A DNA stretch of 64,000 bases from the NCBI GenBank assembly GCA_951406725.2, contig OX597814.1, positions 51,150,001 to 51,214,000 of the forward strand, given 5' to 3'. Origin of the DNA: Octopus vulgaris. Lineage: Eukaryota. The notes under the pieces are model-generated. The model saw only the letters and a list, made by a program, of their open reading frames with translations. It ran no database searches and had not been told where the DNA came from. Positions 21,778 through 22,193 of this stretch are shown here, in pieces (position 1 is the first letter of the stretch; every line of letters starts with the position of its first letter). A program made the position numbers and the translations under genes.

Positions 21778-22193
21778 TAGAAATATTAAAATTACTAAGT
21801 CTCTCTAAAGGAGATTACGGCAGCGTTACTGGATATTAATAGTTATCACCATACTAATATGGCAGTCTAAATATAAGACTAAAGCTGTCGCTGATTAGCT
21901 CCAAGAGGCCATCGCCTCTAGCTAGCTATATGACACACGAACCTGCGTCCATTACAACCTTCGAACAGGGGAGGTCAGCCGCTTCACCTTGCTAGTCAGA
22001 CATCTGCAGACATGTTTCAGGGTTATTGCCCTTTATCAATGCAGCGTAGTCAGAGCCAGCAGGTGTCGCTACTGACCGTCTGTTCGAAGATTTTATTTAC
22101 CTAGTTACAGTGGAATACATCCACTTGTTTTCAATAATAGAAATATTAAAATTACTAAGTTCTGACTACGAACAGGGGAGGTCAGCCGCTTCA
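21778..22193 (-). mobile_element. Retrozyme/Penelope-pLTR-like repeat, copy 2 (360-bp unit + partial repeat)
   Basis: TAGAAATATTAAAATTACTAAGT at 21778 and 22138; CGAACAGGGGAGGTCAGCCGCTTCA at 21962 and 22169; contains the HHR at 22004-22044. Confidence 0.7.
22004..22044 (-). ncRNA. Minimal type-I hammerhead ribozyme, U3-A8 core variant
   Basis: Minus strand reads CUGCA (stem I) UUGAUAA (core) AGGG-CAAUAA-CCCU (stem II) GAAA C-AU-G UC^ UGCAG (stem I'). All helices pair; the cleavage triplet is GUC. Confidence 0.75.

What the first reader, a model, noticed from the sequence alone, without database searches (positions are those of the whole stretch)
22004..22044. Well-folding minimal hammerhead ribozyme with the compensatory U3-A8 core pair
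Seen: the minus strand reads CUGCA-UUGAUAA-AGGG(CAAUAA)CCCU-GAAAC(AU)GUC^UGCAG, giving a 5-bp stem I, a 4-bp stem II, a palindromic ACAUGU stem III and a GUC cleavage site. Established: the HHR core CUGANGA has a C3-G8 tertiary pair that a U3-A8 double swap can replace. Minimal type-I HHRs with palindromic stem III are typical of Penelope-like elements and animal retrozymes and can act as dimers. Inference: both core changes fall on the two paired positions, suggesting retained function rather than decay, and strict CUGANGA searches would miss this motif.
Basis: partly seen in the sequence, partly recalled or inferred. Interest (0 to 1): 0.85.

Follow-up and report, generated by a model that had tools for sequence, protein, structure and literature searches.

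The report
U3-A8 hammerhead in Penelope-mobilised retrozyme
This is a real hammerhead-ribozyme motif with a swapped core base pair, carried by one of hundreds of copies of a 361-base jumping element that likely borrows a Penelope-type retrotransposon's enzyme and would cut itself only when two copies pair; it is a new example of a known kind.

Summary
The motif is exactly as described and is not chance (0 hits in 4,368 shuffles). It is not a lone ribozyme. It sits at the tip of a long hairpin in a 361-bp non-coding repeat unit, and at least 620 copies of the motif occur in the genome. U3-A8 is fixed family-wide (100 of 100 listed). Two homologous sister families carry C3-G8 at the same place, and helices I and II of the closer sister are compensated, so the swap is real between-family covariation, probably derived once. 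It is a canonical, tertiary-contact type I hammerhead, not a minimal one. Its ACAUGU helix III would form only in a dimer, and this copy has no partner in cis. Insertions show Penelope-type marks: (TA)n targets, two 3' ends 54 nt apart, partial tandems and 5' inversions. A young autonomous Neptune-type element in the genome also has U3-A8, without detectable homology to the unit. Natural U3-A8 cores and Penelope-derived retrozymes are already published. Cleavage and expression are untested. Verdict: new member of a known kind, interest 0.4.

The parts
22004..22044 (-). Type I hammerhead: helix I CUGCA/UGCAG, core U3-UGAU-A8-A9, helix II AGGG/CCCU with loop CAAUAA (family: CAACAA or CAAAUA), G12-A13-A14, palindromic ACAUGU (22015-22010), C17 at 22009
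21999..22051 (-). Extended helix I: sixth position G.A here (G-C or U-A in other copies and in family S), internal loop UAC (22048-22046) opposite U (22002), distal helix GAC/GUC. With the last A of loop 2 (22023) this is the predicted loop 1-loop 2 contact
   Evidence: the loop U, UA and the loop-2 A are invariant in 17 of 17 rows; 2 of 3 distal pairs change on both sides; compared with PMC2632901
21956..22092 (-). Long imperfect rod with the hammerhead at its tip
   Evidence: -64.6 kcal/mol, z = -8.1, 0 of 200 shuffles as low; family S folds a similar rod from different sequence
21779..22139 (-). One full 361-bp non-coding retrozyme unit (family U)
   Evidence: 40 of 40 scored places match at 93-100% over nearly the whole unit, 2,947 candidates; no long ORF; circular fold z = -7.2 on the hammerhead strand, -5.3 on the other
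21779..21832 (-). 54-nt 'tail' between the two 3' ends used by the family: end A at 21779 (used here) and end B at about 21833
   Evidence: inverted arms start at query base 55; ends about 170 and 230 nt downstream of the cut site
22140..22193 (-). 5'-truncated remnant of the upstream tandem unit (22 nt, 22140-22161) plus a 28-nt piece copied from the rod's 3' arm (22166-22193); contains no second hammerhead
   Evidence: L001: q1-22 and q181-208
21637..21778 (.). (TA)n-rich tract abutting end A, the usual target

Best explanation
The motif is the type I hammerhead of a 361-bp non-coding repeat unit that occurs in hundreds of copies, and this unit is likely a non-autonomous retrozyme copied into (TA)n tracts by the enzyme of a Penelope-like (Neptune-type) element. 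Steps: (1, shown) U3-A8 is fixed in this family, while homologous families S and T hold C3-G8 at the same position, and helices I and II of S carry compensatory changes. (2, inferred) The double transition arose once in the family's source element and was kept because the 3-8 pair was still needed. (3, predicted) Helix III cannot close over a 2-nt loop, so cleavage would need two units: their ACAUGU palindromes form a 6-bp helix and swap helix I strands, releasing a 361-nt monomer that could circularise. (4, inferred from the shape of insertions) A PLE reverse transcriptase-endonuclease nicks (TA)n on both strands and primes at two internal sites about 170 and 230 nt past the cut site. That gives partial tandems, 5' inversions and a tail on one end. 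(5, shown) This copy has one hammerhead only, so (predicted) it would cleave poorly unless paired in trans.
For: Copy number and fixation: 159 exact 39-mers against 0 for the reversed control; 620 against 0 with positions 3, 7, 8 free, 100 of 100 listed U3-A8. Homologous sisters: family S aligns over 294 bases at about 60% (E 2e-9) and to the same 3' end; family T is found by profile (E 2e-11). Cores are C3-G8 in 26 of 27 (S) and 51 of 52 (T) against U3-A8 in 31 of 31 (U); the tree groups U, S and T separately. Covariation on 17 chosen U+S rows: 8 of 15 pairs change on both sides, 96.5% of cells paired against 20-50% when slid. Insertion shape in 54 loci: inverted arm in 32 of 54; one A end plus one B end in 25 of those 32; (TA)n at 41 of 47 A ends, 25 of 30 B ends and 1 of 8 other ends; 11-12-bp direct repeats at two non-TA insertions (L021, L081). 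These match the PLE hallmarks in Craig et al. and the two internal priming sites in PMC11167929. A young autonomous RT + CX4CX2C + GIY-YIG element with the same target and two ends is present. The swapped double hammerhead is predicted at -30.8 against 2 x -12.8 kcal/mol for open-core monomers.
Against: No cleavage or RNA data. The covariation counts reflect one split (U versus S), not many events, and the rows were hand-picked. The predicted lowest-energy folds mispair the core in both monomer (-17.9) and dimer (-40.8 kcal/mol). G10.1-C11.1 is absent. Only 3 of 54 U loci hold two same-strand hammerheads, so arrays are rare for a retrozyme. No autonomous element with a pLTR homologous to the unit was found in 64 GIY-YIG loci, so the mobiliser is unidentified. 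In the anole PLE, hammerhead mutants did not reduce insertion in vitro (PMC11167929). In Xenopus only 1 of 9 predicted retrozyme dimers cleaved (10.64898/2026.07.22.740005).
Confidence: 0.78

Rival explanations
1. The element is PLE-mobilised, but its hammerhead no longer works. U3-A8 was fixed by two AT-directed transitions in a source copy that spread without needing cleavage, and the rod is kept only as a protein-binding structure.
For: Hammerhead cleavage was dispensable for insertion by the anole PLE in vitro; predicted misfolding; few multimeric loci (3 of 54); both changes are C>T / G>A transitions in an AT-rich region.
Against: Every other core position and the loop-loop nucleotides are unchanged between U and S although the family majorities share only 183 of 312 columns. 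The two core changes hit the two partners of one pair. U3-A8 persists in subfamilies down to about 90% identity. U3-A8 is reported active in vitro (PMC3088659).
Confidence: 0.12
2. The unit is the solo pseudo-LTR of an autonomous PLE not yet found, left by heavy 5' truncation, rather than an independent retrozyme.
For: All insertion marks are those of PLEs; only 64 GIY-YIG loci out of 6,136 candidates were examined.
Against: Upstream of a full unit lies another unit, not endonuclease-coding DNA, in 30 of 30 top loci (these were selected by a query that included the junction). Direct dimers and trimers at 353-361-bp period exist in U, S and T. The one pair 3.9 kb apart enclosed no PLE ORF (L033).
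Confidence: 0.08
3. The host has co-opted this particular copy as a regulatory self-cleaving RNA.
For: None found; the motif is intact.
Against: The copy is young (3 differences from the family majority), so intactness is expected. It is a solo hammerhead between two parts of another repeat.
Confidence: 0.02

Closest known systems
Metazoan non-LTR retrozymes (PMC7229834; 10.64898/2026.07.22.740005)
   Same: 170-400-nt non-coding unit with a canonical type I hammerhead, strong predicted circular fold, coexists with PLEs; the mussel units are about 350-390 bp; the axolotl HHR_Amex1 also has a weak palindromic helix III and cleaves well only as a dimer.
   Different: U3-A8 core; mostly a single unit plus a partial one rather than long arrays; explicit PLE insertion marks (tail, 5' inversion, (TA)n), which a term search of PMC7229834 did not find; no homologous pLTR found, unlike 21 PLE matches in Xenopus; circular RNA not shown.
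U3-A8 minimal hammerheads of Schistosoma mansoni Cercyon PLEs (PMC4209133)
   Same: Same core swap, PLE context, palindromic 15.2-16.2 region, mostly single motifs.
   Different: [quoted passage not shown] This one has a 4-bp helix II, a 6-nt loop and conserved loop-loop nucleotides in a homogeneous young family.
Schistosoma mansoni canonical hammerhead (described in PMC2632901)
   Same: Internal loop in helix I with UAC; one U subfamily has the identical loop 2 CAAAUA.
   Different: There the loop is UCCA:GUAC, here a single U opposite UAC; U3-A8; A10.1-U11.1; shorter helix III.
Neptune/Nematis-type EN+ PLEs (PMC8557442; mechanism from anole Poseidon, PMC11167929)
   Same: (TA)n target, partial tandem, inverted 5'-truncated copy, tail on one end, hammerhead upstream of two 3' ends.
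   Different: No ORF; the tail is 54 nt against the 30-40 reported; the ends lie further from the cut site than in this genome's own PLE (about 170/230 against about 66/102 nt).

Membership tests
Canonical type I hammerhead | Core N3-UGAN-N8-A9 / G12-A13-A14 / A15.1-U16.1 / H17 with a Watson-Crick 3-8 pair | tested here: met
   (pair 3-8: CG 9, UA 8, unpaired 0 of 17)
Canonical type I hammerhead | Helix I about 6 bp and helix II 4 bp, with conserved loop 1-loop 2 nucleotides | tested here: met
   5 bp + G.A here, 6 bp in other copies; loop-1 U, UA and loop-2 3' A invariant in 17 of 17; contact inferred from PMC2632901, not modelled
Canonical type I hammerhead | G10.1-C11.1 pair (typical, not absolute) | tested here: not met
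   A-U here, G.U in some copies, C.A or U-A in family S; other pairs are tolerated in natural hammerheads (PMC3088659)
Canonical type I hammerhead | Match to Rfam RF00163 | tested here: not met
   no hit in the window; 6 hits genome-wide among 73 scored candidates, none of this family
Canonical type I hammerhead | Self-cleavage 3' of H17 | not testable with these tools
   needs transcription assays
Minimal PLE hammerhead (min-HHR) | Long helix II (7-8 bp), extra nucleotide between 9 and 10.1, poorly defined loop 1 | tested here: not met
   4-bp helix II, defined internal loop (definition)
Non-LTR retrozyme | 170-400-nt unit, one type I hammerhead per unit, no ORF, no LTR | tested here: met
   361 bp
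Non-LTR retrozyme | Head-to-tail tandem units with at least two hammerheads | tested here: inconclusive
   not at this locus; 3 of 54 U loci; 15 of 25 in sister family T
Non-LTR retrozyme | Highly self-paired circle (predicted) | tested here: met
   z = -7.2 (U), -7.3 (S), -5.4 (T), 40 shuffles each
Non-LTR retrozyme | Expressed as linear and circular monomer RNA | not testable with these tools
   no RNA holder listed; only contigs could be laid
Autonomous EN+ Penelope-like element | RT + GIY-YIG ORF between pLTRs | tested here: not met
   no ORF in the unit
Non-autonomous PLE derivative | PLE insertion marks (partial tandem, 5' inversion, tail, microsatellite target) | tested here: met
Non-autonomous PLE derivative | Sequence homology to the pLTR of an autonomous PLE | tested here: inconclusive
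   none in 64 GIY-YIG loci out of 6,136 candidates; the profile hits there were separate insertions

The most novel reading that the evidence does not exclude
This genome holds a natural experiment on hammerhead function in retrotransposition. Three homologous 350-360-nt retrozyme families differ in core pair and helix III, and the C3-G8 to U3-A8 switch happened twice independently (in this family and in the autonomous Neptune-type lineage) while catalysis was kept. Cleavage and circularisation efficiency, set by helix III length, would decide how many tandem units are inserted: T, with an 8-nt palindrome, has two or more hammerheads at 15 of 25 loci, against 2 of 30 for U and 1 of 30 for S. 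The fixed A-end/B-end pairing of inverted insertions would be a genomic record of a PLE enzyme priming both target strands on a retrozyme RNA in trans.
Probability: 0.3. Interest if true: 0.65.

Novelty: new member of a known kind. Interest (0 to 1): 0.4.

Why it matters
The role of hammerheads in Penelope-like elements and the identity of the enzyme that moves animal retrozymes are both open. Here young, near-identical non-coding families carry full PLE insertion marks beside an intact young PLE. They also give a natural C3-G8 to U3-A8 switch with close relatives on both sides. That makes both questions testable with natural sequences. The single motif in this window is ordinary: one of at least 620, with a core variant already in print. 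Practical point: searches that demand CUGANGA, and Rfam RF00163, miss this family and the genome's main PLE hammerhead. I found no report of these families in searches of the held library (octopus + hammerhead ribozyme; octopus + Penelope + non-autonomous + microsatellite; retrozyme + cephalopod; U3-A8, U3A8, C3U + G8A). Repbase, Dfam, subscription papers and supplements were not seen and may already hold them.

Tried and rejected
Rfam scan of the window: 49 weak matches, mostly to simple repeats, none a hammerhead. Two copies 3.9 kb apart as pLTRs of a full element: rejected, the DNA between holds duplicated unrelated pieces and no RT-GIY-YIG frame (L033). Profile hits beside PLE ORFs (L144, L161, L137): rejected as parent elements; they lie outside the PLE end, beyond a (TA)n tract, or in opposite orientation. 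Descent of the U hammerhead from the Neptune-type pLTR: no blastn or nhmmer similarity. Expression: no RNA holder listed; runs guessed to be RNA gave contigs only; neither counts for or against. Idea that the (TA)n tract is made by the insertion: in none of the 66 loci tested did both flanks map as one interrupted repeat lacking TA; inconclusive. Four T-type rows were dropped from the pair count because MAFFT misaligned them after helix III; they were kept in the tree. Searches use different spacers, so their totals (C3-G8 1,277; U3-A8 674; C3-A8 120; U3-G8 88) are not a strict 2x2 test. Lunse et al. 2017 was not held, and Przybilski and Hammann 2007 was not read. Our earlier findings returned nothing.

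Full report
Observation. A descriptor demanding a paired 3-8 core, 5-bp helix I, 4-bp helix II and palindromic helix III finds only this site in the window and none in 4,368 shuffles. The 41-mer alone folds unremarkably (z = -1.6) and its MFE mispairs the core. The 141-nt region around it forms a rod with z = -8.1. Rfam reports no hammerhead in the window, and RF00163 scored 6 hits among 73 candidates in the genome, none from this family.

Context. The motif lies in a 361-bp unit (21779-22139), followed upstream by 22 nt of a second unit and a 28-nt templated piece, with a (TA)n tract at its 3' end. The genome G000 (2.8 Gb) gave 2,947 candidates; the 40 scored places match at 93-100%. From the look of its SINEs I recall an octopus; that label comes from no call. 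The unit has no long ORF and folds as a circle at z = -7.2 on the hammerhead strand and -5.3 on the other.

Is U3-A8 compensation or decay? The exact 39-mer occurs 159 times against 0 for the reversed control. With positions 3, 7 and 8 free there are 620 matches, and 100 of 100 listed are U3-A8. Single changes exist but are rare and uncoupled. In the CAACAA subfamily there is one C3-A8, one A3-A8, one U3-G8 and no C3-G8. Family-type copies make up 5 of the first 100 C3-A8 matches and 6 of 88 U3-G8 matches. So copies within the family say nothing about selection; they decay after insertion.

The real test is between families. Family S aligns to the unit at about 60% over 294 bases and shares its 3' end. 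Family T was found by profile. Cores are C3-G8 in 26 of 27 S and 51 of 52 T motifs and U3-A8 in 31 of 31 U motifs. On a 12-row tree U, S and T form separate groups; with two C3 outgroups one change on the U branch is the simplest reading, though the root is only a midpoint. On 17 hand-picked U and S rows, 8 of 15 pairs change on both sides, including 3-8, three pairs of proximal helix I and two of the distal helix; 96.5% of cells pair against 20-50% when slid. These counts are one divergence seen in many rows. Four T-type rows were left out for misalignment.

What kind of hammerhead? The UA of the internal loop, the U opposite it and the last A of loop 2 are invariant across U and S. One U subfamily has loop CAAAUA, the loop of the Schistosoma ribozyme, where loop 1's U pairs with loop 2's 3' A (PMC2632901, passages). 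It is therefore a canonical type I motif in the sense of PMC4209133 (parts 1-2 of 4 read), not a min-HHR. G10.1-C11.1 is missing. Helix III has two pairs over a 2-nt loop, which cannot close; two copies can form a 6-bp ACAUGU helix with swapped helix I strands (-30.8 against 2 x -12.8 kcal/mol). Misfolded states score lower still, so activity is not assured. This locus has one hammerhead; 3 of 54 U loci have two on one strand.

How it moves. In 54 loci (30 top-scoring, 24 found by pattern), 32 have an inverted arm and 25 of these pair an A end with a B end 54 nt inside it. (TA)n abuts 41 of 47 A ends and 25 of 30 B ends, but 1 of 8 other ends. The ends lie about 170 and 230 nt past the cut site in U and about 168 and 216 in T. 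Two non-TA insertions have 11-12-bp direct repeats (L021, L081). Partial tandems, inverted truncated copies, a one-ended tail and (TA)n bias are the PLE marks listed by Craig et al. (passages of the preprint and of PMC8557442). The tail corresponds to two internal priming sites in the anole element (PMC11167929, parts 1-2 of 4).

Candidate mobiliser. A GIY-YIG search gave 6,136 candidates, 150 scored. The main family has a 479-aa frame overlapping a 781-aa frame with RT (Pfam E 1e-6, just under cut-off), a CX4CX2C linker and GIY-YIG. That is Neptune/Nematis-type by the linker; no tree was built. It has a 4,713-bp period, copies up to 100% identical, (TA)n targets and two ends. Its pLTR hammerhead is also U3-A8 with the ACAUGU palindrome, in 29 of 62 loci scanned (3 are places fetched twice), including a relative at 62% protein identity. 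It shows no DNA similarity to the unit, so the two U3-A8 cores are probably independent, and the link between this PLE and the unit is inference only.

Comparison with what is known. Natural U3-A8 covariation, with activity in vitro cited, is in PMC3088659 (passages). About 1,300 such motifs in Schistosoma, found through the Cercyon PLE, are in PMC4209133. Non-LTR retrozymes of 170-400 nt, including dimer-dependent ones, are in PMC7229834 (parts 2-3 of 6), and their PLE origin is argued in 10.64898/2026.07.22.740005 (parts 1-3 of 5), where 1 of 9 tested dimers cleaved. I also saw passages of PMC6765202, PMC3884650 and PMC7151607. No supplements were read; they may list cephalopod motifs. Searches for a prior description of these families found none.

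A side result. T, whose helix III palindrome is 8 nt, has two or more same-strand hammerheads at 15 of 25 loci, against 2 of 30 for U and 1 of 30 for S (Fisher p about 2e-5 and 3e-6). The loci were chosen by different queries and the families differ in age, so this is a lead from three families, not a result.

Verdict. Observation confirmed; interpretation partly supported; works like, and is best filed as, a non-LTR retrozyme likely moved by a PLE, with cleavage, circular RNA and parent element unshown. New member of a known kind; interest 0.4.

Noticed in passing
window 26359-26620 (-): Decayed copy of an S-like retrozyme with an unpaired C3-A8 core, helix I CCUGAA/UUCAGG and ACAUAUGU helix III.
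   Followed up: partly
window 232-506 (-) and 671-769 (+): Old T-like retrozyme with a C3-G8 core and an inverted arm (inverted repeat I11).
   Followed up: partly
L142:289-5510 (also L134, L138, L140): Young autonomous Neptune-type PLE with an upstream 479-aa frame overlapping the 781-aa RT-GIY-YIG frame (possible frameshift) and a U3-A8 hammerhead with a very weak, U-rich helix I.
   Followed up: partly
L144:4780-4850 and L161 (same pLTR): Second PLE family whose pLTR has a hammerhead-like motif with core CCGAAGA (U4C) in both copies seen; read by eye only.
   Followed up: no
L204-L228: Family T: 353-bp unit, about 99% identical copies, fully canonical hammerhead (C3-G8, G10.1-C11.1, ACUCGAGU helix III), frequent dimers and longer arrays; the best candidate for a currently active retrozyme.
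   Followed up: partly
window 21497-21636 and 22194-22432: The element and a 140-bp (TA)n tract sit between two parts of a SINE-like repeat at a point where the intact copy at 50934-51230 has no TA tract; origin of the tract unresolved.
   Followed up: partly
L137:2437-6974: A U-family insertion and a Neptune-type insertion lie end to end, in opposite orientation and about 500 bp apart.
   Followed up: partly
G000, pattern: A further abundant C3-G8 motif family (CUGAUGA AGGCUGGAGGGUAUAUCAGCC GAAACAUGUU; L044, L048-L050, L059, L063) often in inverted pairs, with no clear helix I; likely another PLE-derived repeat.
   Followed up: no
window 9326-9448: Near-perfect 120-nt hairpin that scores weakly to miRNA families; probably a MITE.
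   Followed up: no
window 21000-21300: Looks like the 3' end of a LINE reverse-transcriptase gene followed by a 43-bp tandem duplication; label from recall.
   Followed up: no
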